A DNA stretch of 23,263 nucleotides from Promethearchaeota archaeon (GCA_048938445.1 JBHLME010000069.1:1-23263); one strand, 5' to 3'. Counted from the stretch's first letter, positions 2,517 to 22,079 are shown. Notes: generated from the sequence alone by a model not told the origin. Program-made: numbers and translations.

Positions 2517-2565
2517 TAATAATGCAAATCTTTTATAAAAAATAATTATTTTGGATTGGGTGTAA

Positions 2566-3997: not shown

Positions 3998-4009
3998 TTT
4001 TTTAAATGG

Positions 4010-4041: not shown

Positions 4042-4229
4042 TTGTTTATATAATATTTTATATGTTTTGTTTGATTAAAATTGAATACCATAAAAACTAT
4101 TTTTAAACTTATTAAATAAATTAGATTCTAATTATTCTAATTATTTAAATCTCCATTTTTTAAAAAGATTGTATAATTTGAACAAAATAATCCTTTCCTT
4201 GAATAAGAGATAAAATATTTTAGAGGAGT

Positions 4230-7841: not shown

Positions 7842-8171
7842 GACTCATATAATTAATTTTTAATTTTTAATGTTCGTTCTCCCTAAGGTTCATATTAAAA
7901 AATTTACTTTTTTTCTTTATATATGTTAATGTAATTTCACATATACATAGCTATTCCTCTAAATTAAAATCTTTTTTTTTATCAATTATATTTCAATCGG
8001 TATAAAACTCTTTTCAATAATGTTAAGTAAAAAATATAACTGAATAGCTGAACTATATGAAAAAATAATGATTCTTTTAACGCATTTTTTATCAATATTT
8101 TAAAGAAATAGTATGATATAGAAAAGGGGAAGAAAATAAAAGAACTAAAAGAAAAATTAAGCTTATAATAA

Positions 8172-9410
8172 CTACTTAATGAAATATAGAGGAATTACGG
8201 AGAGTATTTGAAGAATTCCAGCAATAAGGATAATTATTTCTCCAGTAATCAATCCAAATATAGTGTTAAGTCCCCAGAGAGTAAGTCCTAATGGAGAAAG
8301 TATAACTTTAGCTAGAATAGCAAATGAAGCCATTATTTGGTATGGTAAGACTTTTTTATGAGATATGTCGAACAATAAAGTTGTTAATCCTATTAAATAA
8401 AATCCTGAAATGAATTCTCTGATAGAAATTAGAACGAAAAACATGAATATTCCGAATAGCGGGGCAATAGATGTTAGTAAGCCACTAAAAAACACTGTTA
8501 TTAATAATAATTTCCGTTTATTGAATTTACGAATGAATTTACCTGCTAATAACAAGCTAATCACATCGATAAATATAAAAATTATCTGAAATATAGCATA
8601 AAGGGATTGTGGTTCCAACATTCCAACCGCCCAAGGATCAATCATCCAATCATAGAGAAGCGTTCCATATGTTAAAAAAATAAATGTACTCATTAATATG
8701 ACATTTTTTAGAATTATAGGTTCGTTTTTCGTATTATCTTTTTCTAAGTAGGTCTTATCTACTTCAATTTCCTTTAAGAGGAAGATTGTTGGAAAGATCG
8801 TGATTATTGTAATAATTCCCGTGATGAAAATAACGCGCCATGAAGTTAATGAAGTTACATCATCTAAAAAAAAATAATAAACACTTGAAATTATCGCTCC
8901 AATAACACTTCCAAATTGAAGGTAAAATGCGCTCTTGTTTTTCATTGATTCATTTATCGATTGAGCGAGAATGATCTTATCAATCGACACGTCCATTAAA
9001 GACAAAAATGCCAGATTTAAGCCAAGAAAAATAGTAAAGATCACGAGAAATTCTAAATTTAAAAGGAAAATGATGAAACTCAAGATAGCACCAACTGCAC
9101 CAAGTATTAACAGTGTCTTCTTATTAAAAAGTGAGGTTGAACTTTGTTCTAGTCTTGATTTTTTATCAAAATAAATAGAAAGTAGTGGTTTAGCGAACAA
9201 GAAAGAAAATGATACTAAAAGAACTATTCCTAGCTCCGTGATGTTTACTTCTGAGACATTCGCGTAATATATTGGAAGGAATTGATTGACATAGACAAAG
9301 ATTACTTGAACGATCAAATACACGGAAAAATATACAAAGTAATTCCTTTTTTGAAAATTCATTGATATCATTTCTTTGTTCTTTTTTAGTTTATGATATT
9401 CAAATTTCAT
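8172..9410 (-). CDS. Major facilitator superfamily transporter
   Basis: 412 aa with about 12 hydrophobic segments in two halves. MFS motif-A-like loops SIYFDKK and GKFIRKFNKRKLL; the KPL and DVSID motifs recall AmpG/BT1-type MFS. The true start may be a downstream Met (9371 or 9362). Confidence 0.85.
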   Translation of the reverse strand: MKFEYHKLKKNKEMISMNFQKRNYFVYFSVYLIVQVIFVYVNQFLPIYYANVSEVNITELGIVLLVSFSFLFAKPLLSIYFDKKSRLEQSSTSLFNKKTLLILGAVGAILSFIIFLLNLEFLVIFTIFLGLNLAFLSLMDVSIDKIILAQSINESMKNKSAFYLQFGSVIGAIISSVYYFFLDDVTSLTSWRVIFITGIITIITIFPTIFLLKEIEVDKTYLEKDNTKNEPIILKNVILMSTFIFLTYGTLLYDWMIDPWAVGMLEPQSLYAIFQIIFIFIDVISLLLAGKFIRKFNKRKLLLITVFFSGLLTSIAPLFGIFMFFVLISIREFISGFYLIGLTTLLFDISHKKVLPYQIMASFAILAKVILSPLGLTLWGLNTIFGLITGEIIILIAGILQILSVIPLYFIK

Positions 9411-9964
9411 TTTTTATATAAAATAAAATTATCCTTATATAAAGGAAAAAAGAAACTAACTTAGCATCTTTTTTATAAAATATTTAAAAAAAATAATGAA
9501 TCAAAAAAAAATATATTTTTTAGATTAATTTTTATTATTGAAAAAAGTCAAACAATTAATATAACAAATTATCCGTCTTAATGTATAAAAGTATTTTAGG
9601 TTCTCTAAAAATCTAAGATTAAGTTATTGTTTCTTATCCTTTACATTATTTTCCTATTTATTTTAAATTGTTATTAAAGAAAAAAAGTGATTAAATAATT
9701 TTAAATATAAATTGTCTAATTTTGATTTCACGATTGTAAAAATTTGACTAAACATTCCAAAATTTTTAATGGGAAAGACCTAGGTAAAACAAACCTAAAA
9801 ATATATTCCTTTACTCATTCTTTCCTTTCCCATATAAATAATTCTCCTTGATATTAATGAGGCTTTTTGTTTAACATGATTTTGGATAAATTAAAATAAT
9901 ATTAACAAGAAAAAACTGTGGAAGTGTTTAATCATTATTATTTAAACAAATGATATAAAAAATA

Positions 9965-10318
9965 CTAGGTATTCGTTAATTTTTCTTGAATTTTTATCAA
10001 CCGATCATATACTTCAATCAAGAGACTCTCTCTATCGTTTAAATCTTTTGAAGAAATATTTTTAATGGTCTCAGATGCGAATTCATCAATGGATTTGGAT
10101 TTTAAAAGATGTTCTACATAAAATGGAAAAAAATCTAGGAGTTCTTTGAATATTTCTTCCCTATGAAAGATGATCTCTTCTCTCAGTTTTTTCGCGGGTA
10201 ATAGACCATGTTCGAGTTTACTGATCATTTCTTTCAAGACCTCTAACTTACTCTCATCAAATATGATTTTTTCCAGCATATCTTTTAACATTTCTTCATT
10301 TTTATCAAAACTCATCAT
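9965..10318 (-). CDS. Small soluble alpha-helical hypothetical protein, last gene of the operon
   Basis: 117-aa ORF. An SD-like GAGGTG (10321-10326) overlaps the upstream TGA (TGAGGTGGAATGATG); spacing favours the second ATG at 10315. Confidence 0.8.
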   Translation of the reverse strand: MMSFDKNEEMLKDMLEKIIFDESKLEVLKEMISKLEHGLLPAKKLREEIIFHREEIFKELLDFFPFYVEHLLKSKSIDEFASETIKNISSKDLNDRESLLIEVYDRLIKIQEKLTNT

Positions 10319-10324
10319 TCCACC

Positions 10325-13300
10325 TCACATGTTGTTTGAAACATACACACTCAATAGATAAACTAAATCGTTCAACTTTTTATAAAGCCTTGAAACGTTT
10401 CTCTCTATATCCCCATCTGCAAACTCGACAATCTTGCACTCTTTTATTAACTCCTTTAATAACCCATCATTAATAGGGAATCCTTCAAATGATGTTATTT
10501 GGCTCAAAAATATATCAAATTCTTCTTTAGAAGGTAATTCATCTGATTTATTATAAACCATATATATACGATTGAAAAATTTAGGTAAAAGTTCCCTTTC
10601 CATCTCTTGAGCATTGATATATTGTTCAGCCTTTAAATAGCGATATATTCTGAATATCTTATCAAACAATATTCTCATTTCATTGCCCAACAATTCAATA
10701 AAACGATTCTCTTCATTAATTTTTCCTGTGGATTTTTCACTTTTATCTAATTCTATTTCGGTCTCCTTTGAAACAATTTTGGGATATAAATCATCGAAAT
10801 TATTTCTTTTAGAATCATAGTAATCCTTGAGAGCTCGTTCATATTGAAGTCCTACTGAATAAGATGTCCTAATAGATTCTGAGCCGCTTGCTTGTTTGGG
10901 GTGATTTTCAACTAGATAACTATGCTTGATGAGGATGTTGAAAATATCATTTCTCCAATTCCTAATCTCTCGCTTTTTCTTTTCTGAACCTGCAATCTTT
11001 ACAGCCCGGGAGTAAATAAAGCTCATCAAGTCTTCCTTCAACTTATTTCTATATAAATTTCCAATCTTATCTATTTTTTTAATAGCATCCATGAAATTAA
11101 TGATTTCATCAATAAAAGTAAAATAATTATCAAAGTCCTTTTTAAATATCGTTTTTCGTGCTTGTTGTATGATTCTTTTCTCTGAGTCATCAAAATCATA
11201 TCCATATTCTCTCATGAACTTTACGATTTCATCATATTCCATTTCGGGCGTATTTACTAATTCTCCTACATCTAATTTTACTGGAAAAGGTTGGTTAATA
11301 TCAGACCTTCGGACAATAATTTCATCATCCTTCATATTCATGAGGTAACTTTCTTGAAATGTTTCATTTCGACTTGAGCTATAGATCCCAGTTCCATGTA
11401 ATTTACTAAAGTTCATTAGATTAACTATCTGCTTAATTTCTTGCCTTTCTGTGGTCCTTAATGCAGCATAATTAGTAAAAAAGGTATATACATGTGGATG
11501 TAATGATGTGATGGCCTCTGACGAAACTACTATTCCTAATCCTGCGTTCTTGAGGGGCTCAAAGAATAGATCTATTTTGCCCTGCTTGCCATGCTTATCA
11601 AGAAATCGAGAGTTAAACATGATCTCTATGTGTGGAATGAATATTATTTTCTCACAGTAAGGTTTTTGATTTTCTATATAATGAATTATTTTTGATAATA
11701 TGATAAACGTAGCAAAGATTTTTTTCTGTAGGTCTTTTAATTGAGAAAGATTAATGATAACGGTATAATTTTCTTCAATGAAATCTCTCACGGTAATGTT
11801 TTCATCAGGATCACGGGAAAAAAATAAAGCTTCTAGATCTTGTTGAATGAAATCACTAAAAATTGAAGAGACTGAATCCAGACGGGCATCTTTTTCCCAC
11901 TGGGGTTTATAATCAATGTCATCCGTTATGATTTTTGAATCTTTTTCTAATTCAAGGTTTGGATCTGCTTTTAAAATAGCTTGTTTGAATCCATTCATGA
12001 TCCTATCATCCTTTTGAAATACCAAGCTGAGCACGTCTATCATGTATTTAAGATAGTCCATGTTATTTTTGTCATAGTGAATGTCAGACTTGATGGGATC
12101 TATCATAAATGACTTGCCTAATATAAAATAAAGGATTTCATCTTCAAATCGCGAATTCCGGAAATAATTGAGAAGCTTAGACCATTTTCCGGTGTAATCA
12201 AATACAATGCTAGGTGTTCTTGTTTCAATTAGATCCATTACAATTCTCATCATCAACATTTCCCTGCTACTGTTCGAGCCGCCAGTAATCAAAAGTTCAT
12301 TTAATTGGTCCAAAGTGAACCCCGCTTCATTTTCTTCTCTGTAAACTTCTGTGTTGATGGTATGACCTATGGTAATAAAATTTTTGAGATCAAAAGGCGT
12401 ATTAAATTCAGAAGCAATTCTAGTATCTAGCCCTTTTTTAAACTCCGGAAATATTTTTATCATTTTTGCCAGATATGCTCCATGATACATAAGATAATGA
12501 AGGTGGGTACCATTCATCCTAAAATGCTTGTTTTTCAAACATTCTAACAAGAATCCCGAAATGAGCTTGTTTCCCTTTAACATTTCGCCATGGGATTTAA
12601 TTATGTTCATCTTGAATGCTTGAACAGCTATTCTCTCCTTATCATAGAGATTTTCTTCTAAACATGAAAAATATTTCATTTTAAATGATTTTACAGGGAG
12701 ATATTCGTGTAATGACATAATAAAGATGGTCCTCCAAATCCCTTTTCTTACCGACATGAAGTCATGTTGCTGTGAAGCAGTTTTAGCCCATAAAACTTGA
12801 GTTTGAGTTTTAAGATTTAATAAATCCCATGCTTTATCTTCAAACGTGGCGAACCTCATAGGTGACATGGTATAAGTGAATGAAAGAGGGATTTTCTGAG
12901 GGATTATAGCTTGAATAAACTTGCTCATCCGCGCTATGGGTTTATTTCTAGAATCCAATAATGGAGGTATCGAATGAGTTAAATTGAAAATTTTAGTCCC
13001 GATAAGGAGTTTATTATCGACTGAAGCAAACAAACAGTCAGGAAATCTCTTGAAATAATAAAATGAGATTTTTTCAAAAGGATCAATCGTTTGAATTTCC
13101 ATATTAGTATAAGAAGATTTCTTTAGTAACCCAAAAAGGAATTCTCTCCAGAAAAAAAAAATGAAAGCGATAAATATTCCAATACACCATACCATAATGA
13201 TGATAATTGGAATTCCAACTCTTTCCAAGAGAAGATAAGAAATAATTATAATCATTCCAATATACATTGATTTTAATACTTGTTTAATGACATTCTGAGG

Positions 13301-14161
13301 AAAATTATTCTTTTTCATATCCCCCTGAATCACATCTGATTGAAAAAAAATGGTTTTGAATCCCTTAATCAGATCATCACTCATCAGTTCTTCTATATCA
13401 AAATGCCTGAAATTAGCATCGAATACATTTCTTGCTGCAGCTGAAAACCGATCTAACACTTCTAGTAAATATCGTAATTTCATGGAACTAAACATTCCCT
13501 TCACGTCGTAAAAAAAGCAAAAATATATAATTGTCCTCAAGGAGCGCGCTGATTTTCCTATCTTCATTTTATTTGATTCATTTTTTGAAGTGATGCTCAT
13601 TAGAGGTCTTTGTATGATTTGATACGTAAAGGGGATGTCAATTTCTGAAAGAGAAGTAAATAATTGTTTATAATTGGGTTTAATGTTTTCCGCTACCGTC
13701 TTGACTTGAAAAATTCTCAATCCTACGGTAGTCAAATCCTTGATGTTAGTGTAGAAAAGGGTATCTTTTGTTGATTTCACTGTCCAGAACTGAATGGATT
13801 CAAAGGGAGTTAATTTGCTCGCAGACCGTAATCTCATTGTTAAGAAGTTATTTAATGAAAAAAGTTCTTCATGAAAAACAATAATAAAAAAGACAAAAAT
13901 AAAAAAACCCGTGATGATTGAGGCTATCATATTTTTAAATACCATAAATGTTAAAAGCGTAATGACGCTCATCACACCTCCAAGTACAATGACTTTGATT
14001 GTCGTGAGATTTGAATTCACATCATTAAAACTTGGACTTTTTGCCCATATTTTCAAGTAATTATAAGCATCTTCAATTGATTTATCCTTGTTTCTATATT
14101 TAATCCTATTTCTTTTTTTACTAATTATCTTATCAACATCTTCGTGGGTTAGTGAAGTCAT
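10325..14161 (-). CDS. Membrane-anchored VirB4/HerA-like protein with duplicated N-terminal [2TM + alpha/beta] module, degenerate P-loop ATPase domain and probable C-terminal winged helix
   Basis: Start moved from 14194 to ATG 14161 (ATGA overlap with the upstream stop, GAGGT SD). HerA/VirB4 pattern: ITIG...ELLITGGSNSSRE (Walker A position), PSIVFDYTGKW, FMIDPI, TVIINLSQL, IIFIPHIE (Walker B position), EPLKNAGLGIVVSSE (RK-G..Q position). Four TM segments lie in the N-terminal 350 aa. Confidence 0.75.
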   Translation of the reverse strand: MTSLTHEDVDKIISKKRNRIKYRNKDKSIEDAYNYLKIWAKSPSFNDVNSNLTTIKVIVLGGVMSVITLLTFMVFKNMIASIITGFFIFVFFIIVFHEELFSLNNFLTMRLRSASKLTPFESIQFWTVKSTKDTLFYTNIKDLTTVGLRIFQVKTVAENIKPNYKQLFTSLSEIDIPFTYQIIQRPLMSITSKNESNKMKIGKSARSLRTIIYFCFFYDVKGMFSSMKLRYLLEVLDRFSAAARNVFDANFRHFDIEELMSDDLIKGFKTIFFQSDVIQGDMKKNNFPQNVIKQVLKSMYIGMIIIISYLLLERVGIPIIIIMVWCIGIFIAFIFFFWREFLFGLLKKSSYTNMEIQTIDPFEKISFYYFKRFPDCLFASVDNKLLIGTKIFNLTHSIPPLLDSRNKPIARMSKFIQAIIPQKIPLSFTYTMSPMRFATFEDKAWDLLNLKTQTQVLWAKTASQQHDFMSVRKGIWRTIFIMSLHEYLPVKSFKMKYFSCLEENLYDKERIAVQAFKMNIIKSHGEMLKGNKLISGFLLECLKNKHFRMNGTHLHYLMYHGAYLAKMIKIFPEFKKGLDTRIASEFNTPFDLKNFITIGHTINTEVYREENEAGFTLDQLNELLITGGSNSSREMLMMRIVMDLIETRTPSIVFDYTGKWSKLLNYFRNSRFEDEILYFILGKSFMIDPIKSDIHYDKNNMDYLKYMIDVLSLVFQKDDRIMNGFKQAILKADPNLELEKDSKIITDDIDYKPQWEKDARLDSVSSIFSDFIQQDLEALFFSRDPDENITVRDFIEENYTVIINLSQLKDLQKKIFATFIILSKIIHYIENQKPYCEKIIFIPHIEIMFNSRFLDKHGKQGKIDLFFEPLKNAGLGIVVSSEAITSLHPHVYTFFTNYAALRTTERQEIKQIVNLMNFSKLHGTGIYSSSRNETFQESYLMNMKDDEIIVRRSDINQPFPVKLDVGELVNTPEMEYDEIVKFMREYGYDFDDSEKRIIQQARKTIFKKDFDNYFTFIDEIINFMDAIKKIDKIGNLYRNKLKEDLMSFIYSRAVKIAGSEKKKREIRNWRNDIFNILIKHSYLVENHPKQASGSESIRTSYSVGLQYERALKDYYDSKRNNFDDLYPKIVSKETEIELDKSEKSTGKINEENRFIELLGNEMRILFDKIFRIYRYLKAEQYINAQEMERELLPKFFNRIYMVYNKSDELPSKEEFDIFLSQITSFEGFPINDGLLKELIKECKIVEFADGDIERNVSRLYKKLNDLVYLLSVYVSNNM

Positions 14162-15048
14162 TGGTTTCTTACCTCTTGATAATACAATTTCCAATATAAA
14201 AATCCAAGGATAATAGCTATTCCAAACAGGGCGAATGCAATAAGTGTAAATGCTCCAGATATTTCAGGACGAAATAATTCTTGGATGAGGATCACAATTG
14301 ATAACATTATAAAAACGACAGCCAATCCAATCAAAAAAAAACCTGGGATTTCATTAAGACTCTCTTGATATAAATGATTATTTTTTAATTGTCCCTTAAA
14401 TGATATTTTTTTAGAATTACCCATTGCTATTTCACGTTTCAATTTTTTATATTGCAATAACTGTTCGAAGGACTCTTTATCATATTTATTTTTTAATTTT
14501 TTTCTGATCATTGCTTCTTTATGACTCAATTCATGAGAAAGATACTGTTTAACATGATTACTATCTTTCTTCTTGAAAAAGATTCCCGATCGACCATTAT
14601 TACTCCGTATAAAGAAATTATTTGCTTGTGTTGTATATGAGGATTCCAAATAATCAGTATCATGAATAGACTGATAAACATTTGGAACGTCCATTTTCCT
14701 CAAGTCATAATAAATATTTACGAGTTCTTTGAGTGAATCGAAAGGAAATGACATAGGATTCCTCAAATAAAGTAACTCATATTTTTGAACCTTGTCTATT
14801 ATTTCTTTATGAAAAATCTTAAAATTAAAGGTATTTTGCATGACAGAATTGATTATATTCATATATTCAAATGCCTTGTGTTCTTTATTTGAAATTAACG
14901 GAGCAAATCCAAGCTTGACACCACTTTCATTCAAAACTCTCCTGATCAATAAATAAAAAACTACTGCGGCTCTTCTGGAATCTTCATTTTTCTTACTTAA
15001 ATGTATCAAAGTTCTTAATTTCACGTCAAGATCTTCATATGGGTTCAT
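14158..15048 (-). CDS. Hypothetical protein with soluble helical N-terminal region and two C-terminal TM helices
   Basis: 296-aa ORF with ATGA overlaps at both ends (15045-15048 and 14158-14161). TM segments: IPGFFLIGLAVVFIMLSIVILI and AFTLIAFALFGIAIILGFLYW. Confidence 0.85.
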   Translation of the reverse strand: MNPYEDLDVKLRTLIHLSKKNEDSRRAAVVFYLLIRRVLNESGVKLGFAPLISNKEHKAFEYMNIINSVMQNTFNFKIFHKEIIDKVQKYELLYLRNPMSFPFDSLKELVNIYYDLRKMDVPNVYQSIHDTDYLESSYTTQANNFFIRSNNGRSGIFFKKKDSNHVKQYLSHELSHKEAMIRKKLKNKYDKESFEQLLQYKKLKREIAMGNSKKISFKGQLKNNHLYQESLNEIPGFFLIGLAVVFIMLSIVILIQELFRPEISGAFTLIAFALFGIAIILGFLYWKLYYQEVRNQ

Positions 15049-15776
15049 CTAGTCCTTCGCCACCTTTGTCTTTGAAATTTTTCATAAATAATAGAAACAT
15101 CTTCCTTTGATCGAGATTCCGAATTTAGTTCTGCTATGAATTTCTCTAAAGGAATCTCTTCTTTTGAACTTTCTAAGATCTTCGCAATCAGAGTTTCTGG
15201 AGATCGCTTTTTTGATTCAAATCTATTTATTGTAAGAACAGAAAATAGTATATGAGGAAATATCAAGAGAAAGGACGCCACTTGCATTACATATGCTGGA
15301 CCAATGCAATAAGAATGAATAGTGTTTGTAGACAAATCTTCAATAGATATGAAGGGAAAATATAATTCATTAGTAATTAAAAACGTAAATGGCATTACTA
15401 AAATAAAATATCCATTTATCATCAATAAAAAAGTATTGAGATAAATGTAAGGCTTAGTCTCTTCCATTGAATTGGTCATCTCGACGCTCTTAAGGATTGC
15501 TCCAAATGCGCATATGAATACTAATCCTATAAGAATGACTCCCATAATAAGCAATTCGGTAGAATCTTTAGGTCTAAGGGCTTCATTACTACTTATTCCC
15601 TCAATGAAACTTGTTTGCCAGCTTAAGAATGCATTAAATGACCACTCAGCAATTACACTCCCAGATGAACATGCAGAATAATAATACCAATCCATAAACA
15701 TAGAAATAAATGCTAATGCTAATCCAAATAAAAATAAAATTCGTGCAAACTTTCCTTTTATAGTACCTGCCATCAT
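15045..15776 (-). CDS. Four-TM membrane protein with a beta-rich first outer loop and charged C-terminal tail
   Basis: The ORF track starts at TTG 15782. GGAGG (15784-15788) sits 7 nt before ATG 15776, so that start is preferred. Four hydrophobic segments. Confidence 0.85.
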   Translation of the reverse strand: MMAGTIKGKFARILFLFGLALAFISMFMDWYYYSACSSGSVIAEWSFNAFLSWQTSFIEGISSNEALRPKDSTELLIMGVILIGLVFICAFGAILKSVEMTNSMEETKPYIYLNTFLLMINGYFILVMPFTFLITNELYFPFISIEDLSTNTIHSYCIGPAYVMQVASFLLIFPHILFSVLTINRFESKKRSPETLIAKILESSKEEIPLEKFIAELNSESRSKEDVSIIYEKFQRQRWRRTR

Positions 15777-15778
15777 TC

Positions 15779-17839
15779 TCAATCCTCCAAGAAATTGCTA
15801 TATTTATTTGCCATAGATGGGCTGAATTTAATTTTTCCTCTTGAATTAATTTCATTTTTTTCCTCGTTTTCTTGTTTGCCATTAATGTGTGCGATATGTT
15901 CTTCAATTTCGAATGAACGAACAGTATCAAATTGTTTCGTGTTCATATCGCATTCGTATATGAATTGATGCATCCACTCTTCGGGTAATTCCTCTTTTAT
16001 CATAATAATTCCAGACTCATCAATCTTTAAATTTCTCTCATAATAGGGAGTTGTGAAATATGCATGGAGTTTGGATTGGTTCTTTAGCAAGGAAAGTACA
16101 AAAAATCCAATACCAAGTACGAGTAGCATTGCCATCCCTACTCCTAATCCGATAAATGTTGGTAATAATGAGGGTGCAAATAGCGCAATTAAAAATATTG
16201 CACCCGAATAAATTACAAAAGGTATAGCAAAATAACTTATCCGTGAAAAGAATTTATCATACGTGGTGATGTAACCATCGATCAAGTTTTCCTTGGTTGA
16301 ATGGTTCTCGATCAATATATGTTTCTTTTCAATATAAGCGATGAAATTTTTTATATTCATTGAATCAATGAAATGGATATTCTCAGCTCTTTGCCATGCG
16401 AATGGTGCCATTGAGCTTTCCAAGAACTCGACTTCATTATCAACTATTAAAATGGGACAAATTAATACTTCATAATATTTTTCTCCTGTAGTTAAGAAAA
16501 GCTCTTTTTTTGTAAGAGATTTTTCTATTGTTAGGGATTTTTTCAAATACTTTGAGAGAAAGTGAAATAATGGCCCTTCATTTATGATATCCTTAAAAAG
16601 TTGATCTCGAGAAATCTTCACAGCATCAAAACAGCTTTCAATTAAGAGCCTTTTATCATGCATGTTCAAAGTAATCTTGCGGTTTTCAGGAACATATTGT
16701 ATTTTTTCTTCATATATCCTGTGCTTCCCTTTTCCTGCTGAGATTTTTATGGGGATGATGATGATGAGTTCTAAAAAGTCGGAAATCTCAATTGACTTCG
16801 CTGCTAATAAGTCAATATTTTTAAAAAGCGTTAAATATTGCTCAATTTTTTTGTTGAGAACCCAATAGTCCAGAGATCTCAAGTCATTTTCGATATTTTT
16901 GATGATTTTATCAATTTCTTCACGAGTTAATCTTTCAGCTTGAAGTGGTGTTATAGATGTATTTTTTATGCTGATAGGTTTACTTGGAGTATCATTTATA
17001 ATTGATTCAGATATTAAACCATCTTGAACTAGTAAATCATTGCTTGAATGTAAAAATTCGGAAAAAAATTCCTCATCAATTTTATTGTCATTCATTTTGG
17101 AATCATTTTCATAAAAATTACCTTCTTTAATTTCATCTAATTCATCAAACATAAGAATTTTTTCATTACTCTCATCTATTTGCTGGATTTCATTACTATT
17201 GCTACTAATTTCCTTATCATAATCAGAAGTATTATCAGGTAACACTTCATTATCAATTATCATTTCAGGAGGTTCTATATAATCAGTGAGGTTTGATTGT
17301 ACCATATGATTTCGTGCTACATTGATGTATTTCTCTGCAGATTTCATACCTATCCCCTTGAATGATTGTAACATACGTGGAGTCATTGATGCTAGTTGTT
17401 CAATTGAATCAATACCATTACTTATTAGAATTTCTAAAGTTTTAGGACCGATTCCTTGGAGCATTCCTAATTCTCTTTCGCTTTTTTTAACCTTTGCAAT
17501 CTGGTTCAATTTAGTATCTATTCTTAGAGTTGGATTTCCTTCTACTTGCATGTTCTTTTTTTCCCCTTTTATTGATTCAGGTTCTTGCTCGACATACTCA
17601 CTCATAATTTCCATTTGTTTCTTGATAAAATTGATGAAATTTTCGAATGTATCAATCCACTTTTCATCATTTATTTCAAATGCAATGTCAAGCCCTTTTC
17701 GAGCTAGTCTAAGCCCTTGATCGAAGTCATAGGTGTCGATACATTGATTCACGCCATTCTCCAAGATGGATAATTCCCATTCATTTTCATCATCAAATTC
17801 ATTAATGATATCCATATCGAGTCTAGGGCAATATCTCAT
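15779..17839 (-). CDS. Membrane-anchored helix-hairpin-helix DNA-binding protein with probable degenerate PD-(D/E)XK-like domain
   Basis: 686 aa. Tandem HhH LQGIGPKTLEIL...LQSFKGIGMKSAEKYI (~17310-17470), acidic linker, then ENDLRSLDYWVL...IDLLAAK...LIIIIPIK (~16745-16890) and a TM hairpin (~16090-16240). The HhH and TM calls are strong; the nuclease fold is tentative. Confidence 0.8.
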   Translation of the reverse strand: MRYCPRLDMDIINEFDDENEWELSILENGVNQCIDTYDFDQGLRLARKGLDIAFEINDEKWIDTFENFINFIKKQMEIMSEYVEQEPESIKGEKKNMQVEGNPTLRIDTKLNQIAKVKKSERELGMLQGIGPKTLEILISNGIDSIEQLASMTPRMLQSFKGIGMKSAEKYINVARNHMVQSNLTDYIEPPEMIIDNEVLPDNTSDYDKEISSNSNEIQQIDESNEKILMFDELDEIKEGNFYENDSKMNDNKIDEEFFSEFLHSSNDLLVQDGLISESIINDTPSKPISIKNTSITPLQAERLTREEIDKIIKNIENDLRSLDYWVLNKKIEQYLTLFKNIDLLAAKSIEISDFLELIIIIPIKISAGKGKHRIYEEKIQYVPENRKITLNMHDKRLLIESCFDAVKISRDQLFKDIINEGPLFHFLSKYLKKSLTIEKSLTKKELFLTTGEKYYEVLICPILIVDNEVEFLESSMAPFAWQRAENIHFIDSMNIKNFIAYIEKKHILIENHSTKENLIDGYITTYDKFFSRISYFAIPFVIYSGAIFLIALFAPSLLPTFIGLGVGMAMLLVLGIGFFVLSLLKNQSKLHAYFTTPYYERNLKIDESGIIMIKEELPEEWMHQFIYECDMNTKQFDTVRSFEIEEHIAHINGKQENEEKNEINSRGKIKFSPSMANKYSNFLED

Positions 17840-17941: not shown

Positions 17942-18177
17942 TAAACTAAATTTCAAAATATTTTAAGAAAAATGGGGAGAAGAACATTAAATTAATGCTT
18001 AATTATACATAAAAAATGACTATAAAATTTGAAAAATTGAAAATCTAAATCGAAATCCAGATTTAATTACTGTGAATAAAACCAAAATTAGTATTAATAA
18101 TTAAGGTTGAGCAAAATATTTATATTGGATAAACTTATAATATTTAAATAAATTATATTATAAAAGAGTGCGTATTG

Positions 18178-18996
18178 ATGAAAGAAATTTGTCATAAAGG
18201 ATTAGCTAGATTAGTTGGGACACTTGGTTCAATGCCTTTAGAGCCTGAAGATTTAAAAAATGTTATTGATGGTTCCATTGATCCTGATAATCTCAATAAA
18301 CAACGAATGAATGAAAATTTAATCAATACATTGACAATCTCGTTTGAATGGTTATTGGAGCATACAATCCATGCAAAAGAGTTAGCGATCAAATCTATTA
18401 ATGAAGCTTGTGAAGCCAGAAAAAGAAATAATGGAATTTGGGGTCGCTTTCTTGGATGGGCATTTCATTTTATAACTGATTGGGGAACACCCTATCACTC
18501 TTTTAAATCAAAATCAAATCCACTTCCATCATCAGCAAAAATAGGCACAGGTTCTGGAGCCATAATTGGAGGAATTGGAGGCTTAATTAAGAGTCTTACA
18601 AAACGTGATACTGATTTTAGGGAAATAATTTCAGATGGTTTCAAAGGAGCTGGAATTGGCGCGGTTGTAGGGACGGGAATAGGTGTTGGTATTGGTGGAG
18701 CAGCCCTAGCCATAAGCCATGGAAAATTTGAAACTCGGTGCGATGAACTCTGGGATGAATATTACTCCTCAATAGAGGAAAAATTTGAAATAGAGATAAA
18801 AAATCAAGAAGTATTAAATATAACAATAGATCTGTTCGAAAATAAGATGAATTCTTTAAGACAATTATGCGAAAGTTTACCTGCAGACTGGATTTTCACG
18901 TGCAATCGTGAAGAATATGCAGATTACATGATTAAAATTGCATTAACAATGGATTTAGCTTGTCAAGTCATAGCAAATCAAAAAATAAATGAATAA
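18178..18996 (+). CDS. Zinc-dependent phospholipase C / S1-P1 nuclease-fold protein with glycine-zipper insertion
   Basis: Metal-ligand pattern: N-terminal MKEICH, GSIDPD, EHTIH, FLGWAFHFITDWGTPYH, HGKFE. Gly-rich hydrophobic hairpin at ~18541-18717. ATG 18178 is preferred over TTG 18175. Confidence 0.75.
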   Translation: MKEICHKGLARLVGTLGSMPLEPEDLKNVIDGSIDPDNLNKQRMNENLINTLTISFEWLLEHTIHAKELAIKSINEACEARKRNNGIWGRFLGWAFHFITDWGTPYHSFKSKSNPLPSSAKIGTGSGAIIGGIGGLIKSLTKRDTDFREIISDGFKGAGIGAVVGTGIGVGIGGAALAISHGKFETRCDELWDEYYSSIEEKFEIEIKNQEVLNITIDLFENKMNSLRQLCESLPADWIFTCNREEYADYMIKIALTMDLACQVIANQKINE

Positions 18997-19211: not shown

Positions 19212-19538
19212 TTGGAGAAAAATAAATTGTCAATAAGAACCGAAGACTTAAAAGATATTGGCAAGTTCAAGCAGAACACTAAAAATGCCCATAAATGTCC
19301 TATTTGCAAGAAGAAGATTGATATTGGTATTGAATTTGATATAATAAACAAAATGGTTAGAAAAGATAAGGGGATTTACACGCATCTCATCATACATGGG
19401 AATCCTCTTCATGGGATGATTTGCTATATTGATGTTCACATGACTGTTAGGAGCGTGAGTGCGATTGAAAGCATTGAAATTTCAAGAGATTCAGAAACGT
19501 TCAAGCAATTTATGAAAAAGTGGGCTAATCCTTACTGA
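19212..19538 (+). CDS. Small putative Zn-binding protein (CPxC...HxxxHG..H...YID..VR family typical of Asgard archaea)
   Basis: 108 aa; HKCPICKK...YTHLIIHGNPLHGMICYIDVHMTVRSV. TTG start. The family assignment is recalled, not searched. Confidence 0.75.
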   Translation: MEKNKLSIRTEDLKDIGKFKQNTKNAHKCPICKKKIDIGIEFDIINKMVRKDKGIYTHLIIHGNPLHGMICYIDVHMTVRSVSAIESIEISRDSETFKQFMKKWANPY

Positions 19539-19649: not shown

Positions 19650-22079
19650 TTGAGAGCTTTACTTGAATCCAAGATCTTCAAACTAAGAGAAATTCAAAAA
19701 GAGGCTATCAAAAAAAGTCTTTTTTTCAGAAAATCATTTTTAGCATGTGCACCTTCTGGTAGTGGTAAAACTCTAATAGGAGAATTGTGTGCTATCTATA
19801 ACATTTTCCATAAATTTGGAAAATCGGTATATCTCGTACCTTTTAAAGCATTGGCGACAGAAAAATATTATCATTTTCTCAAGTCATATAAGAAATATAG
19901 TATAAACATCCTACTTTCTATTGGAGATTTTGATGTTGATGATAGGGAATTAGCTAGAGCAGATCTTATTGTTACAACATACGAAAAGCTTGATTCTATC
20001 CTACGTAATTTTCATGATAAAGATTGGATTTTCGACATTTCCACCGTCATTGTAGATGAAATTCACGTCATTGGAGAAAATCATCGAGGTCCAAGATTGG
20101 AATCGTTGATTGTAAGATTAAATGAGCTATTAAACAAACCACAAATAATTGGGCTTTCTGCAACCATTGCCAATGCTGAATTTTTCTGTTCATGGCTTAA
20201 TTCTTTAGGAAATGATACGATCCTTATTCAGTCTAATGAGCGTCCTGTACCCCTCAAGTATGACATACAAGTCACGCAGAACAAGAATTCGACTATTAAA
20301 AAAATAGTTAACTCCACTTTAAATGAAAAGGGTCAAGTTCTCATCTTTCTTAACACGAGAAAAGCAACACAAAGGCAAGCTCATGACCTCTTAGCACAAG
20401 TAAGTAACTATTTAGGAGATTCAGATAAGGCAAAACTCAAGAAAGTTTCTGAAACTATGTATGAAATAAAAGGTCATAACAAGGAACTCGCTAAAGTTTT
20501 TAAACATGGGATAGCGTTTCACCATGCAGGATTGCTTTCAAAAGAACGAAAAATTGTAGAGGATAATTATCGAAAGAGACACCTGAAGGTGATTTGTTGC
20601 ACGACCACACTTTCTGCGGGAGTCAATACCCCTGCACGGGTAGTAATACTCAAAAATTTCAAGAAATTTATCACATCAGGCCACAACATTCGGGATTTCT
20701 CAGATTTTTATGAGGATGGTGATGGATTTGGTTATTTTAAGGCATTCACTGCTAATGAAGTGTTTCAAATGCTAGGTCGTGCTGGAAGACCAGGTCTAGA
20801 TCCTGTAGGTTATGGTATAATACTAGTCACGGATATTGAAGAAAAAATATGGGTAGAAGATCATTATTTTCAATTATCATCACTCGATTCACCGCTAGTT
20901 CCCAAGTATAACAATTTAACTTCAATGCTTCGCGACATGAATACGTTAAAAGAACAGACATTATTAAGAATCTATGAAGAAAAAGGGCTTTCTATAGATG
21001 ATTTGAAAAGATTTTTTGAAAGAACCTATTTTTGGAGCATTATGAAGGATCAAATGAAAGATAAATATGTTCCCATTGATCAGTTGCTAATGATAAAAGA
21101 AATATCAACAATAAATATTCTTAAACTCCATTCTGATCCAGGGATAGTGCGTTCTTTAAAGAAATCCAACATTCCCGTTAAGATAAGTAATATTTCAAGC
21201 ACTACTTTATTAGGACACGTAAAAAGCGAATTTGGGGTGTATACATGTCAATTTGATGTTGATACAGGTATCCAATGCTCTTGTGGATTTGAAAATGGTA
21301 TTTCAGACAATTTTGTTCATCAAGAGTTTGCGTTCCGGTTTTGTAGCCACGTAACTGCCTTTTTATTGTTCTTACTGCAATATAGTAATGAAAAGATTCA
21401 AAAATATGTCGAAGATATAGTACCAAAAGCAATAAAGGATCAATATATCCTTAATTATTTGGAAGAGAAAGGATTGATCATCAAGTCTAGTAAAAATACA
21501 TTAAAATGTTCTCAATTCGGAAAGTTAATCATAAGATTGTATCTTTATCCTGCCTCAGGAGTGCTCATACGTCACAGACTAGAAAACTCAGAAATAAACA
21601 CTTATCTAGATTTGATTCGTGAGGCATATCATATATTAATTAGTGAGGGACGGTTAAGAGACATGAAAATGCTCAATCCTATCCTTGATTATGCTGATGA
21701 GGAGCCGCTTGATAAAATATTAGAGACATACCATATAATGGCAGGTGACTTGTATTCCGTAAGGGATAACTTGAAAAGGATCGTTATGTTTGTTGGAATT
21801 ATTGCACGATACATGAGTGATTCTGATCTTTCATTGATTAACGTGACAGAGATGGCGGAGACTCTACAAATCCGAATACATCATGGGATTAAAGAAGAAT
21901 TATTTGATTTGGTCTTGCGCTTGCCAAACGTGGGACGAGTAAGGGGGAGAATATTTCACGATGCAGGGTATCACACCGCAGATCAAGTAAGAAAGGAAAA
22001 TTATTACATTTTACATAAAAAGACAGGTTTAGGGATTAATTTTTGTAAAAAACTCATCCAGCAAAAAAACCATAAATAA
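19650..22079 (+). CDS. hel308: Hel308/Ski2-like SF2 DNA helicase with SWIM zinc-finger insertion; true start probably upstream (~19554)
   Basis: Motifs LREIQ, APSGSGKT, PFKALATEK, TTYEKLDS, DEIH, GLSAT, RPVPL, FHHAGL, TTTLSAGVNTPA, QMLGRAGRPGLD and C-terminal HhH LPNVGRVRGR. CSC-x19-CSH at 21276-21350. Confidence 0.9.
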   Translation: MRALLESKIFKLREIQKEAIKKSLFFRKSFLACAPSGSGKTLIGELCAIYNIFHKFGKSVYLVPFKALATEKYYHFLKSYKKYSINILLSIGDFDVDDRELARADLIVTTYEKLDSILRNFHDKDWIFDISTVIVDEIHVIGENHRGPRLESLIVRLNELLNKPQIIGLSATIANAEFFCSWLNSLGNDTILIQSNERPVPLKYDIQVTQNKNSTIKKIVNSTLNEKGQVLIFLNTRKATQRQAHDLLAQVSNYLGDSDKAKLKKVSETMYEIKGHNKELAKVFKHGIAFHHAGLLSKERKIVEDNYRKRHLKVICCTTTLSAGVNTPARVVILKNFKKFITSGHNIRDFSDFYEDGDGFGYFKAFTANEVFQMLGRAGRPGLDPVGYGIILVTDIEEKIWVEDHYFQLSSLDSPLVPKYNNLTSMLRDMNTLKEQTLLRIYEEKGLSIDDLKRFFERTYFWSIMKDQMKDKYVPIDQLLMIKEISTINILKLHSDPGIVRSLKKSNIPVKISNISSTTLLGHVKSEFGVYTCQFDVDTGIQCSCGFENGISDNFVHQEFAFRFCSHVTAFLLFLLQYSNEKIQKYVEDIVPKAIKDQYILNYLEEKGLIIKSSKNTLKCSQFGKLIIRLYLYPASGVLIRHRLENSEINTYLDLIREAYHILISEGRLRDMKMLNPILDYADEEPLDKILETYHIMAGDLYSVRDNLKRIVMFVGIIARYMSDSDLSLINVTEMAETLQIRIHHGIKEELFDLVLRLPNVGRVRGRIFHDAGYHTADQVRKENYYILHKKTGLGINFCKKLIQQKNHK

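What the first reader, a model, noticed from the sequence alone, without database searches (positions are those of the whole stretch)
9965..17839. Candidate undescribed membrane DNA-handling system: five coupled genes built around an HhH/nuclease-fold anchor and a VirB4/HerA-like protein
Seen: five co-oriented genes with ATGA overlaps (15045-15048, 14158-14161) or gaps of a few nt, and SD-like motifs (GGAGG, GAGGT, GAGGTG) before internal starts. Four of the five products are membrane proteins (2, 4, 2 and 4 TM). The first carries tandem HhH DNA-binding motifs and the fourth a VirB4/HerA-type domain. Known: crenarchaeal Ced/Ted DNA-import systems and type IV secretion pair a membrane-bound VirB4/HerA ATPase with small membrane proteins. 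Inference: this is a stoichiometric membrane complex for DNA import/exchange, chromosome tethering or antiviral sensing in an Asgard archaeon. It differs from Ced in the HhH-nuclease-fold subunit and the dead motor. No relaxase, integrase or pilin is visible, which suggests a domesticated chromosomal system rather than a conjugative element.
Basis: partly seen in the sequence, partly recalled or inferred. Interest (0 to 1): 0.88.

Follow-up and report, generated by a model that had tools for sequence, protein, structure and literature searches.

The report
ATP-dead VirB4/CedD-like Asgard membrane operon
An Asgard (Lokiarchaeia-type) archaeon carries five tightly coupled genes for a membrane complex built around a relative of DNA-transfer motors that has lost its ATP-splitting residues and is inherited together with a neighbouring Hel308-type DNA helicase, so it is probably an undescribed way of handling DNA at the cell membrane.

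Summary

New here:
- D holds an internal duplication of a membrane hairpin plus an N-terminal domain.
- D has a C-terminal winged helix.
- Its nearest named family by sequence, reached through distant Asgard relatives, is CedD, a membrane ATPase required for DNA import in Sulfolobales.
- In seven Asgard families, counting the window's own, the D-like gene lies beside a Hel308-like helicase, often with RadA, XPD and FEN1.
- Within the window's family, operon and helicase are present or missing together (50/4/8/19 in 81 genomes).
- A NYN nuclease domain is fused to A in one genome and to E in two.

The "nuclease fold" in A was not supported. Physical assembly could not be tested because the complex predictor was unavailable.

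Best reading (about 0.5): a non-catalytic membrane hub that holds DNA for the partner helicase. Ced-like import, defence and RNA surveillance remain open.

The scan had already noted the same family in other genomes. I found no paper describing it.

The parts
15779..17839 (-). Gene A (686 aa; public call starts at 17815). It has an N-terminal three-helix bundle, an (HhH)2 domain, a disordered acidic linker of about 110 aa, an alpha/beta middle domain, a TM hairpin and a folded cytoplasmic tail ending in a conserved Y-x-x-F-L-E-D motif.
   Evidence: ORF; model m6eeca18cca0d, pLDDT 75, confident at 20-80, 120-180 and 300-660; family alignments A3 and A4.
17321..17476 (-). (HhH)2 DNA-binding domain of A (residues 122-173), closest to the N-terminal domain of RadA/Rad51 and the NusA AR domains.
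16295..16942 (-). Middle alpha/beta domain of A (residues about 300-515). Near-invariant D343, K348, P363, P462, E474 and K506.
16085..16219 (-). TM hairpin of A (residues 541-585).
   Evidence: Hydropathy; helices 519-554 and 556-596 in the model.
15045..15782 (-). Gene B (245 aa from TTG 15782; ATG at 15776 or 15773 lies behind GGAGGA). It has four TM helices and a charged cytoplasmic tail, and its first outward loop carries conserved aromatic residues.
   Evidence: No Pfam family is shared by more than 1 of 30 members.
14158..15048 (-). Gene C (296 aa). A helical cytoplasmic N-domain of about 230 aa followed by a C-terminal TM hairpin (237-284).
   Evidence: Only weak Atlas look-alikes (TM-score < 0.5).
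10325..14161 (-). Gene D (1278 aa from ATG 14161; the longest ORF reaches 14194), the central pseudo-ATPase. The residue numbers below count from 14194.
13151..13993 (-). D, first module: TM hairpin (68-107) plus domain X1 (108-305), followed by the second TM hairpin (305-348).
   Evidence: Hydropathy; hhalign of residues 60-305 against 300-560 gives probability 99.0, P 3.4e-18 over 220 columns.
12425..13141 (-). D, domain X2 (352-590), the repeat of X1. It is possibly the counterpart of the VirB4 N-terminal domain.
   Evidence: Full-length TrwK/VirB4 chains align from model residue 20-24 onward (401-473 aligned residues, but rmsd 18-23 A).
11192..12421 (-). D, RecA-like core of the FtsK-HerA superfamily (residues 592-1001).
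12260..12283 (-). Degenerate Walker A of D (residues 638-645, GGSNSSRE): no Lys and no Ser/Thr at the catalytic positions.
   Evidence: Alignment A1; aligned P-loop columns.
11624..11647 (-). Degenerate Walker B of D (residues 850-857, IIFIPHIE). An invariant Pro sits where the Asp should be.
10853..11050 (-). Winged-helix-like module of D (residues about 1049-1114).
   Evidence: Helix-helix-helix-strand-strand in the model. PadR/HTH_34-type hits at the same place in distant relatives.
10328..10786 (-). C-terminal helical domain of D (residues about 1137-1289).
   Evidence: Model, pLDDT 82-90.
9965..10318 (-). Gene E (117 aa), a soluble helical protein. In two relatives it is fused to a NYN nuclease domain.
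   Evidence: PF11977 in the E homologues of L014 (E 2e-10) and L025 (E 7.4e-7).
19650..22079 (+). Hel308-like Ski2-family helicase (809 aa), divergently transcribed. It is the co-inherited partner.
   Evidence: Pfam DEAD, Helicase_C and Helicase_dom4_arc; NCBIfam Hel308-type equivalogs E 4.9e-123, 412 bits, below the cut-off of 887; PDB ASCC3 E 3.6e-87 and Hjm E 4.9e-81; linkage and co-occurrence.
19212..19538 (+). Small protein (108 aa) with a Cys-x2-Cys motif, just upstream of the helicase. It is conserved with the helicase in relatives.
   Evidence: tblastn hits beside the helicase in 7 of the 9 relatives' loci that hold the helicase (L013, L014, L019, L022, L023, L024, L027). No family hit.

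Best explanation
A-E encode a membrane-anchored, non-catalytic hub for nucleic acid (most likely DNA) that works with the neighbouring Hel308-like helicase.

Shown:
- D has the RecA-like core of the VirB4/HerA/CedD class, preceded by two copies of a membrane hairpin plus N-domain module and followed by a winged helix.
- D's Walker A and Walker B are destroyed, so it cannot act as a motor.
- A carries a RadA-type (HhH)2 domain on a long flexible linker and is pinned to the membrane by a hairpin, with both ends on the cytoplasmic side.
- B and C add six more membrane helices.
- All large domains face the cytoplasm.
- The genes are translationally coupled, syntenic and under purifying selection.
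- The genes are gained and lost together with the helicase.

Inferred:
- D forms a ring under the membrane, as VirB4, HerA and TrwB do, and serves as a static collar or docking platform.
- A's HhH and D's winged helix hold duplex DNA at the membrane.
- E is a soluble adaptor that in some genomes brings a NYN nuclease.
- The helicase supplies the ATP-driven unwinding or translocation that the dead ring no longer can.

The biological purpose is not settled. It could be repair or recombination of DNA held at the membrane, uptake or exchange of DNA as in Ced, or restriction of foreign DNA.
For: Fold:
- Foldseek E 2.7e-12.
- A profile of 16 homologues against PDB sequences finds only a HerA (8j4u), at E 0.16.

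Dead motor:
- None of 16 aligned homologues has GK[ST] at the P-loop.
- None of 239 stored family proteins has [AG]xxxxGK[ST] at that position; 4 have the pattern elsewhere.
- Of 22 distant D-like ORFs, only the two weakest (L080, L082) have it.
- The Walker B Asp is an invariant Pro in the window's family.

Duplication: hhalign probability 99.0, P 3.4e-18.

Sequence bridge to Ced: NCBIfam CedD is the top family for 16 of 53 D-like proteins, best E 1e-15. The CedD architecture and its role in DNA import come from passages of PMC11868833.

Synteny:
- A-B-C-D in 9 of 16 fetched loci, plus one cut by a contig end.
- A-B adjacent in 28 of 30 further loci.

Helicase link:
- The helicase is next to the operon in 9 of those 16 loci.
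- It lies within the fetched flank of D-like genes in 13 of 22 loci from other Asgard families (f9, f11, f14, f17, f21, f28), and directly abuts the D-like gene on the same strand in 5.
- RadA is present in 11 of the 22, XPD in 5 and FEN1 in 3.
- The best hit of those helicases in this genome is the window's helicase (303-360 bits, against 147-179 for the next).

Co-occurrence in 81 genomes of the family, my tally (A counted at best E <= about 1e-30, helicase at E <= 1e-50): both 50, A only 4, helicase only 8, neither 19.

NYN domain: fused to A in L027 (E 1.8e-17) and to E in L014 and L025. This argues that A and E sit in one assembly.

Selection, one congeneric pair: dN/dS is A 0.21, B 0.28, C 0.23, D 0.18 and helicase 0.09.

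Precedent: a ring ATPase partnering Hel308/Hjm (PINA; PMC6061704, seen only as a search listing with the start of its abstract, and in a passage of PMC13623763).
Against:
- Ring formation and DNA binding are inferred from relatives, not shown.
- HHH_5 is missing from 7 of 35 A homologues, so HhH-mediated DNA binding is not universal.
- NYN domains are usually RNases, and the helicase's best PDB hits include the RNA-linked helicases ASCC3, SLH1 and Brr2. RNA is therefore not excluded.
- In the window's own family RadA, XPD and FEN1 are not in the neighbourhood.
- Because operon and helicase are adjacent, their joint absence from fragmented assemblies can be an assembly effect. The genomes are also close kin, so the 2x2 table overstates independence.
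- The module is accessory: D was not found in 7 of 28 family genomes, some 98-99% complete. It also evolves two to three times faster than the helicase. Both traits fit a defence or exchange system as well as a repair hub.
- A, B, C and E have no detectable counterparts in the distant clusters. The only exception is an A-like neighbour in L021 (hhalign P 2.4e-6).
Confidence: 0.5

Rival explanations
1. A Ced/Ted-like machine for DNA import or exchange. The membrane parts (B plus the hairpins of A, C and D) form a conduit. The dead D ring is the cytoplasmic collar. The Hel308-like helicase pulls single-stranded DNA in for RadA-dependent recombination.
For: - CedD is the nearest named family by sequence (16 of 53 D-like proteins, best E 1e-15) and has the same TM + NTD + HerA/VirB4-like layout (PMC11868833 passages).
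- Ted loci also sit beside recombination genes (Rad50, a HerA-like helicase; figure-legend passage of PMC9905601).
- D-like genes lie beside RadA in 11 of 22 distant loci.
- The distribution is patchy and accessory.
Against: - No pilin, no VirB6/CedA-like protein and no extracellular domain was detected. B has no Pfam family shared by more than 1 of 30 members. A, B, C and E have no NCBIfam hit to a Ced or type IV secretion family.
- Outward loops are short: about 44 and 28 residues in B, and a few residues in the hairpins.
- The ATPase that Ced needs is dead here.
- The folds of B and C were not predicted, so a VirB6-like fold is not excluded.
Confidence: 0.15
2. An antiviral or anti-plasmid defence system. 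The dead ring senses or traps invading DNA at the membrane, and the helicase plus optional NYN nucleases destroy it.
For: - Fast evolution of A-E (23-39% identity, against 57-74% for the helicase, across the family) and dN/dS of 0.18-0.28 against 0.09.
- Patchy presence and extra copies of D in some genomes (three in G015).
- One paralogue lies next to a DUF87 HerA-like ATPase that matches PADLOC mad8 and HerA models (E 4.8e-11).
- NYN nuclease add-ons.
- HerA-class proteins and Ski2-like helicases (HamB) are known defence parts, and the helicase matches HamB models at E 1.8e-42.
Against: - None of A-E matches any of the 5027 PADLOC models at E <= 0.1, nor do the 4 distant D-like or neighbouring proteins of unknown family that were scanned at E <= 0.001 (L068 D-like and 488-aa neighbour, L066 D-N and D-C); L016's 346-aa neighbour also had none.
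- The helicase scores far higher on Hel308-type models (412 bits) than on HamB (143 bits).
- The main copy keeps one chromosomal position across at least nine genera, which is unlike a defence island.
- Distant relatives are embedded among RadA, XPD and FEN1.
Confidence: 0.15
3. An RNA-directed membrane complex. The helicase acts like its eukaryotic relatives ASCC3, Slh1 and Brr2 on RNA or stalled ribosomes at the membrane, the NYN domains are RNases, and A-E form the membrane platform.
For: - The best PDB hit of the helicase is ASCC3 (E 3.6e-87), followed by Hjm, SLH1 and Brr2.
- NYN (Zc3h12a-like) is annotated as a ribonuclease family.
- HhH domains of the NusA AR type also score on A.
Against: - NCBIfam's best models for the helicase are Hel308-type DNA helicases.
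- The neighbours in other lineages are DNA recombination and repair genes (RadA, XPD, FEN1).
- The HhH of A is closest in sequence to the RadA N-terminal domain.
- The relatives of D (VirB4, HerA, CedD, TrwB, DndH) act on DNA.
Confidence: 0.07
4. A decayed remnant of a type IV secretion-like or conjugative element, kept only as a structural membrane protein set with no nucleic-acid function. On this reading the helicase linkage is historical.
For: The ATPase motifs are lost. No relaxase, pilin or coupling protein was found. No family hits for B, C or E.
Against: - Purifying selection acts on A-D (dN/dS 0.18-0.28).
- The deviant P-loop pattern GG[ST]xx[ED]R is itself conserved in distant lineages.
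- The helicase linkage is kept in different gene orders in six other families.
- HhH and winged-helix modules are retained.
Confidence: 0.08

Closest known systems
CedD / CedB of the crenarchaeal Ced DNA-import system (NCBIfam NF053655 CedD, NF041017 CedB)
   Same: - The same layout: membrane helices, then an N-domain related to the VirB4 NTD, then a HerA/VirB4-class RecA-like domain (PMC11868833 passages).
- CedD is the nearest named family by sequence for distant members of the D family (16 of 53, best E 1e-15).
- Both are chromosomal and accessory, and both are tied to recombination and repair.
   Different: - The window's D does not hit CedD at all, and the relatives score at most 57 bits against a cut-off of 600.
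- Walker A and B are dead.
- The membrane hairpin plus N-domain is duplicated.
- D has an added winged helix and a helical C-terminal domain.
- The partners are A, B, C, E and a Hel308-like helicase rather than CedA, CedA1, CedA2 and Ups pili. No pilin was seen.
VirB4 (TrwK, TraB) with VirB3, the inner-membrane ATPase of type IV secretion systems
   Same: - Full-length TrwK chains align from the start of domain X2.
- A membrane hairpin in front of an N-domain recalls VirB3-VirB4 fusions (recalled from memory, not tested).
   Different: - No Pfam or NCBIfam VirB4 family hit.
- The catalytic motifs are lost.
- No VirB2, VirB6, VirB8, VirD4 or relaxase was detected.
HerA (HerA-NurA end resection; SIR2-HerA and DUF4297-HerA defence)
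   Same: - The only sequence-profile hit in the PDB is a HerA (8j4u, E 0.16).
- Both are associated with DNA repair genes.
   Different: No DUF87 or HerA family hit. No NurA, Mre11 or Rad50 beside it. D is membrane-anchored and ATP-dead. A HAS-barrel was not identified (not specifically tested).
PINA-Hjm (Hel308) partnership in Sulfolobus
   Same: A ring-forming P-loop protein that partners the archaeal Hel308/Hjm helicase in processing branched DNA (search listing and start of the abstract of PMC6061704; passage in PMC13623763). It is a functional analogy for 'ring plus Hel308'.
   Different: PINA is a soluble, active ATPase of another family with PIN and KH domains. No homology to D was tested or claimed.

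Membership tests
VirB4 (type IV secretion ATPase) | RecA-like C-terminal domain of the FtsK-HerA superfamily | tested here: met
   [not shown]
VirB4 (type IV secretion ATPase) | Functional Walker A (GxxGxGK[ST]) and Walker B (hhhhDE) | tested here: not met
   The window has GGSNSSRE and IIFIPHIE. 0 of 16 aligned homologues and 0 of 239 stored family proteins carry the motif at that position.
VirB4 (type IV secretion ATPase) | VirB4-type N-terminal domain | tested here: inconclusive
   TrwK chains (8rtd_O, 7o41_A, 7o43_A, 8rtb_A) align from model residue 20-24 with 401-473 residues, but at rmsd 18-23 A. The domain was not folded or searched alone.
VirB4 (type IV secretion ATPase) | Match to curated VirB4 family models (Pfam CagE_TrbE_VirB, NCBIfam VirB4-like) | tested here: not met
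   No family for D at E <= 0.1 in Pfam or NCBIfam. Distant relatives reach only E 0.0015-0.005 on the CD1110 VirB4-like model.
VirB4 (type IV secretion ATPase) | Encoded with VirB2/VirB3/VirB6/VirB8-type partners | tested here: inconclusive
   No such Pfam or NCBIfam hit for A, B, C or E. The folds of B and C were not predicted.
CedD / CedB (Ced DNA import) | Score above the curated NCBIfam cut-off (CedD 600 bits, CedB 700 bits) | tested here: not met
   The window's D has no hit. The best relative scores 57.4 bits on CedD and 14.9 bits on CedB.
CedD / CedB (Ced DNA import) | Architecture: TM helices + N-domain + HerA/VirB4-like domain | tested here: met
   compared with the description in PMC11868833.
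CedD / CedB (Ced DNA import) | Partner genes cedA/cedA1/cedA2 (VirB6- and VirB2-like) and DNA-damage induction | tested here: inconclusive
   No hit to a Ced or type IV secretion family in NCBIfam or Pfam for A, B, C or E. Their folds were not tested, and expression cannot be tested with these tools.
HerA | DUF87/HerA family match, HAS-barrel, NurA partner | tested here: not met
   [not shown]
Hel308 (for the partner helicase) | Score above the NCBIfam equivalog cut-off | tested here: not met
   412 bits against a cut-off of 887 (NF002654) and 323.6 against 1200 (NF040935). It is therefore a 'Hel308-like' Ski2-family helicase. Hel308 domain 4 is present (PF21280, E 1.5e-6).
PD-(D/E)xK or other nuclease fold (A, middle domain) | Structural match to a nuclease fold with a conserved acidic/Lys catalytic set | tested here: inconclusive
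   [not shown]
Known anti-phage defence systems (PADLOC-DB 2.0) | Any component model matched by A-E | tested here: not met
   0 families for A, B, C, D and E at E <= 0.1. Only the helicase matches HamB-type models, at 143 bits, weaker than Hel308 models.

The most novel reading that the evidence does not exclude
This is an Asgard-specific machine descended from the VirB4/CedD lineage of DNA-transfer systems. Its ring has been turned into a dead membrane collar, and an SF2 helicase of the Hel308 lineage (the lineage that gave rise to eukaryotic HELQ/POLQ-type enzymes) has taken over as the motor. [quoted passage not shown]
Probability: 0.2. Interest if true: 0.9.

Novelty: new variant of a known kind. 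Interest (0 to 1): 0.72.

Why it matters
If the reading holds, Asgard archaea keep a conserved membrane platform that couples DNA-binding modules and a Hel308-type helicase to a motor protein that is catalytically dead across the inspected family. That combination is not described for Ced, Ted, type IV secretion or HerA systems.

It could explain why this Hel308-like helicase is patchy in Lokiarchaeia. A survey reported Hel308 missing from 13 of 15 Lokiarchaeota genomes (passage of PMC10946056). Here it behaves as part of an accessory module.

It also gives a concrete, testable candidate for DNA exchange, membrane-linked repair or defence in the lineage closest to eukaryotes.

Finally, it is a clear case of a pseudo-enzyme family kept under selection. 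About 300 representatives were found among 1.84 billion proteins.

Tried and rejected
- Complex prediction (A residues 296-686 with D residues 12-560): the queue was full, the job was not sent on, and the tool was declared unavailable. No interface test exists.
- Sequence search of D against PDB chains: 0 hits at E <= 10. The profile search gave only one HerA, at E 0.16.
- Pfam, NCBIfam and PADLOC on the window's D: nothing.
- ESM Atlas for A's middle domain: the Atlas model was too poor (pLDDT 0.40) and gave no usable hit.
- ESM Atlas for C: only TM-scores below 0.5, to DUF4145 and Abi_C (HEPN-like) clusters. The alignment shows no conserved Arg...His pair, so I dropped the HEPN idea.
- Fold search of the A model: only the N-terminal helical bundle, the HhH domain and the long helices matched. 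A chimallin row (E 0.09, probability 0.47-0.60, rmsd 12) was judged to be noise.
- hhalign of the membrane and small proteins of the distant clusters (L066-L069) against the A, B, C, E and D profiles: no convincing match. The exception is the 598-aa neighbour in L021, which matches A at P 2.4e-6 over 246 columns; my print-out clipped the first digit of the probability column.
- Pfam on 30 B homologues: no family shared by more than one member.
- A mobile-element reading: no integrase, relaxase or transposase family, no tRNA, and G+C of the operon (0.29-0.34) close to that of its flanks.
- The whole-family search with the A profile: its tally of 81 of 81 genomes is inflated by generic HhH hits, so I counted only strong matches.
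- Literature searches for a description of this system found none: Asgard+HerA+VirB4, Lokiarchae+VirB4, Hel308+Asgard, Asgard/CedB/CedD/VirB4-like and Hel308/transmembrane/gene neighborhood. Subscription journals are not covered.
- PMC4158269: nothing relevant in the passages retrieved.

Full report
**The observation.** The window (an entire 23,263-base contig, about 30% G+C) holds five minus-strand ORFs at the stated coordinates:
- A, 15779-17839
- B, 15045-15782
- C, 14158-15048
- D, 10325-14194
- E, 9965-10318

- B/C share ATGA at 15045-15048.
- C/D share ATGA at 14158-14161, provided D starts at ATG 14161. The public gene call uses that start (P0001, 1278 aa).
- A/B overlap or are 2 nt apart, and D/E are 6 nt apart.
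- Purine-rich GGAGGA, GGTGG, GAGGT and GAGGTG lie just upstream of the B, C, D and E starts.

Hydropathy gives 2, 4, 2, 4 and 0 membrane helices for A to E. Pfam finds an (HhH)2 domain in A (HHH_5, residues 122-173, E 2.5e-10). B, C, D and E have no significant Pfam, NCBIfam or PADLOC family.

**What D is.** I aligned 16 homologues taken from related genomes and folded the cytoplasmic part, residues 352-1289 (mean pLDDT 74, with the core about 90).
- Foldseek against the PDB gave HerA (4d2i, E 2.7e-12), TrwK/VirB4, SIR2-HerA, TrwB and the VirB4 C-terminal domain (4ag5_A, TM-score by target 0.70).
- By sequence the link is nearly invisible. phmmer against the PDB found nothing, and a profile found one HerA at E 0.16.

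The ATPase motifs are gone.
- At the P-loop position the window reads GGSNSSRE, and none of the 16 homologues has GK[ST].
- At Walker B an invariant Pro replaces the Asp (IIFIPHIE).
- A profile search of 1.84 billion representative proteins found only 303 relatives at E <= 0.001.
- Among the 239 family proteins I could retrieve, none has [AG]xxxxGK[ST] at the P-loop position; 4 have the pattern elsewhere.

D has further features.
- Residues 60-305 and 300-560 are a repeat, a membrane hairpin plus a domain of about 190 residues (hhalign probability 99.0, P 3.4e-18, 220 columns).
- Behind the core lies a helix-helix-helix-hairpin module. In distant relatives this module scores as a PadR/HTH_34-type winged helix.
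- A helical C-terminal domain follows.

**What A is.** With 35 homologues the model reached pLDDT 75. It is confident for an N-terminal three-helix bundle (20-80), the HhH domain (120-180) and residues 300-660. A disordered acidic linker spans 183-294.
- The HhH domain is closest to the N-terminal domain of RadA/Rad51 and to the NusA AR domains.
- There is no N-terminal signal sequence, and basic residues flank the hairpin on both sides. This places both ends of A in the cytoplasm (read from the sequence; inference).

**B, C and E.**
- B has four membrane helices. Its first outward loop carries conserved aromatic residues, and no Pfam family is shared by more than 1 of 30 homologues.
- C is a helical cytoplasmic domain with a C-terminal hairpin. 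Weak Atlas look-alikes (HEPN-like families, TM-score < 0.5) are not backed by any conserved Arg...His pair.
- E is a small helical soluble protein.

**Conservation.** D is found in 24 of 41 relatives, including 18 of 24 genomes of the same family.
- In 16 fetched loci, the order A-B-C-D recurs in 9, plus one cut by a contig end. E lies directly downstream in 8 of those 10.
- In 30 further loci picked through A, B follows A in 28.
- Sequence relatives that carry a name are all 'hypothetical protein', from Promethearchaeota, Lokiarchaeia and other Asgard labels (98 hits).
- A-E diverge fast: 17-39% identity across the family, against 57-74% for the neighbouring helicase.
- They are nevertheless under purifying selection. 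In one congeneric pair dN/dS is 0.21, 0.28, 0.23 and 0.18 for A-D, against 0.09 for the helicase. The E-like gene gave a noisy 0.70 on 124 codons.

**The helicase link.** An 809-aa Ski2-family helicase lies divergently at 19650-22079.
- Its best NCBIfam models are Hel308-type DNA helicases (E 4.9e-123, 412 bits, below the cut-off of 887).
- Its best PDB hits are ASCC3, Hjm, SLH1, Brr2 and Hel308.
- It scores far lower on Hachiman HamB models (143 bits).
- It sits beside the operon in 9 of the 16 relatives' loci.

A phylum-wide search with the D profile found matches in 44 of 161 genomes. Outside the window's family these are distant, shorter or split forms, either an N-domain gene followed by a core-plus-winged-helix gene or a single protein of about 780 aa. 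I fetched 22 such loci.
- The helicase lies within the fetched flank in 13 of the 22, spanning six other families (f9, f11, f14, f17, f21, f28). In 5 it directly abuts the D-like gene on the same strand.
- RadA is present in 11, an XPD-like helicase in 5 and FEN1 in 3.
- Most of the loci without the helicase (at least 6 of 9) are contigs of only 5-13.6 kb.
- The best hit of those helicases in this genome is the window's helicase (303-360 bits, against 147-179 for the runner-up).

Within the window's family I tallied two searches of the same 81 genomes. A was counted only at best E <= about 1e-30, because the HhH domain inflates the raw count. The helicase was counted at E <= 1e-50.

| | Helicase present | Helicase not found |
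|---|---|---|
| A present | 50 | 4 |
| A not found | 8 | 19 |

- Three near-complete genomes without D (99%, 98% and 95% complete) also lack the helicase at that threshold. In two others the helicase hit sits at a contig end.
- Caveats: the genes are adjacent, so an assembly gap removes both, and the genomes are kin.
- Even so, this helicase behaves as part of an accessory module rather than as a universal housekeeping Hel308. That fits a published remark that Hel308 seemed missing from 13 of 15 Lokiarchaeota genomes (passage of PMC10946056).

**A sequence bridge to Ced.** The window's D hits no NCBIfam model, but CedD (NF053655) is the top family for 16 of 53 D-like proteins scanned. The best is E 1e-15 at 57 bits, far below the cut-off of 600.
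- CedD is described as membrane helices plus a VirB4-NTD-like domain plus a HerA/VirB4/CedB-like ATPase, and is needed for DNA import in Saccharolobus islandicus (abstract and passages of PMC11868833).
- Ced and Ted are described as domesticated type IV secretion systems with VirB4-, VirB6- and VirB2-like parts (passages of PMC9905601).
- The P-loop columns of the distant D-likes read GG[ST]xx[ED]R, with a retained hhhDD/DE Walker B. The window's family has also lost the Walker B Asp.
- Only the two weakest hits (L080, L082) carry a true GTTGSGKT-type loop.
- The inactivation is therefore old and progressive, and the deviant loop is itself conserved.

**Accessory modules and paralogues.**
- A NYN (Zc3h12a-like) nuclease domain is inserted in A in one genome (L027, E 1.8e-17) and fused to the C-terminus of E in two others (L014, L025). 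It occurs in 1 of 35 A homologues. A domain that moves between two subunits argues that they belong to one assembly.
- Some genomes have extra copies of D without B and C. One lies next to a DUF87 HerA-like ATPase (which also matches PADLOC mad8 and HerA models) and a 1673-aa TFIIB-repeat protein. One lies next to TPR and CDC48_N proteins. Others are paired divergently with an A-like gene.

**Interpretation.** The supported core is this: a conserved, selected, membrane-anchored assembly with cytoplasm-facing domains. It contains a ring-type pseudo-ATPase of the VirB4/CedD/HerA class with a winged helix, and a RadA-type HhH protein on a long tether. It is genetically tied to a Hel308-like helicase and, in other Asgard lineages, to RadA, XPD and FEN1.

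I therefore favour (about 0.5) a static membrane hub that holds DNA for the partner helicase. Ring formation, DNA binding, subunit contacts and helicase recruitment are inferences.

The purpose stays open:
- Ced-like import or exchange (0.15). Against it: no pilin, no pore protein and no outward domains were detected, though the folds of B and C are untested.
- Defence (0.15). For it: fast evolution, patchiness, paralogues and nucleases. Against it: no PADLOC match, a fixed chromosomal place and repair-gene neighbours.
- An RNA-directed role (0.07).
- A functionless remnant (0.08).

**Novelty.** Five literature searches found no description of this family or of its link to Hel308. The library lacks most subscription journals.

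Earlier agents of this scan reported the same family on other genomes with the same core reading. I saw these notes only after reaching it myself, and they are not independent evidence.

Added here are the five-gene form with E, the CedD bridge, the moving NYN domain, the co-occurrence table, the conserved deviant P-loop and the paralogue contexts. I class the finding as a new variant of a known kind: it is VirB4/CedD-derived, but it is a dead ring with a new partner set.

**Limits.**
- Only two structure jobs were available, so B, C, E, the N-terminal half of D and the middle domain of A were never folded alone.
- The complex predictor was unavailable.

Noticed in passing
window 2566-3997 (minus strand): A Cdc48-like gene appears broken. 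The CDC48_N/CDC48_2 ORF (3428-3997) ends in three stop codons. The following AAA domain (stop-to-stop frame 2566-3324, with a GTGKS Walker A) is in another frame and has no start codon before 3186, so the called ORF lacks its P-loop. An intact 760-aa version exists in a relative (L015).
   Followed up: partly
window 4230-7841 (minus strand): A 1203-aa ORF with no Pfam, NCBIfam or PADLOC match. Only its last 48 residues find a tblastn match, in one relative's locus (L014).
   Followed up: no
window 19650-22079 (plus strand), about residues 520-560 of the helicase: The Hel308-like helicase carries an insertion with a Cys-x-Cys ... Cys-x-His pattern that looks like a SWIM-type zinc finger. I read this from the sequence only; Pfam did not call it.
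   Followed up: no
window 18175-18996 (plus strand): A 273-aa ORF lies between the operon and the helicase. It has a weak zinc-dependent phospholipase C match (E 5.8e-4, below the cut-off) and a glycine-zipper stretch. It was not found at this position in the relatives' loci.
   Followed up: no
L016 (G015:C76) 936-13069; L015 (G015:C59) 5982-13955: One genome has three copies of D. One copy is flanked by a DUF87 HerA-like ATPase (PADLOC mad8 E 4.8e-11) and a 1673-aa protein with a TFIIB repeat and HTH motifs. Another is flanked by a TPR protein, a stand-alone CDC48_N protein and a DUF285 surface-type protein.
   Followed up: partly
L068 (G163:C1) 2352-17831; L069, L073, L081 and L085 are similar: In another Asgard family a long co-directional cluster strings together RadA, an XPD-like helicase, small membrane proteins, the D-like pseudo-ATPase, the Hel308-like helicase, a 488-aa two-TM protein, RadB/KaiC-like P-loop proteins, a five-TM protein and FEN1. 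It looks like a membrane-linked recombination and repair supercluster worth a study of its own.
   Followed up: partly
L080 (G170:C28) 113-4369; L082 (G183:C116) 1614-5399: Proteins of 1418 and 1261 aa are the weakest D-profile hits (E about 1e-6) but carry an intact GTTGSGKT-type Walker A at the aligned position. They may be the nearest catalytically active relatives of the family.
   Followed up: no
window 3-2516 (minus strand): An 838-aa metallo-beta-lactamase/beta-CASP protein (running off the contig end) has an N-terminal extension of about 250 aa. The extension contains two similar segments of about 100 residues, seen by eye in the translation.
   Followed up: no
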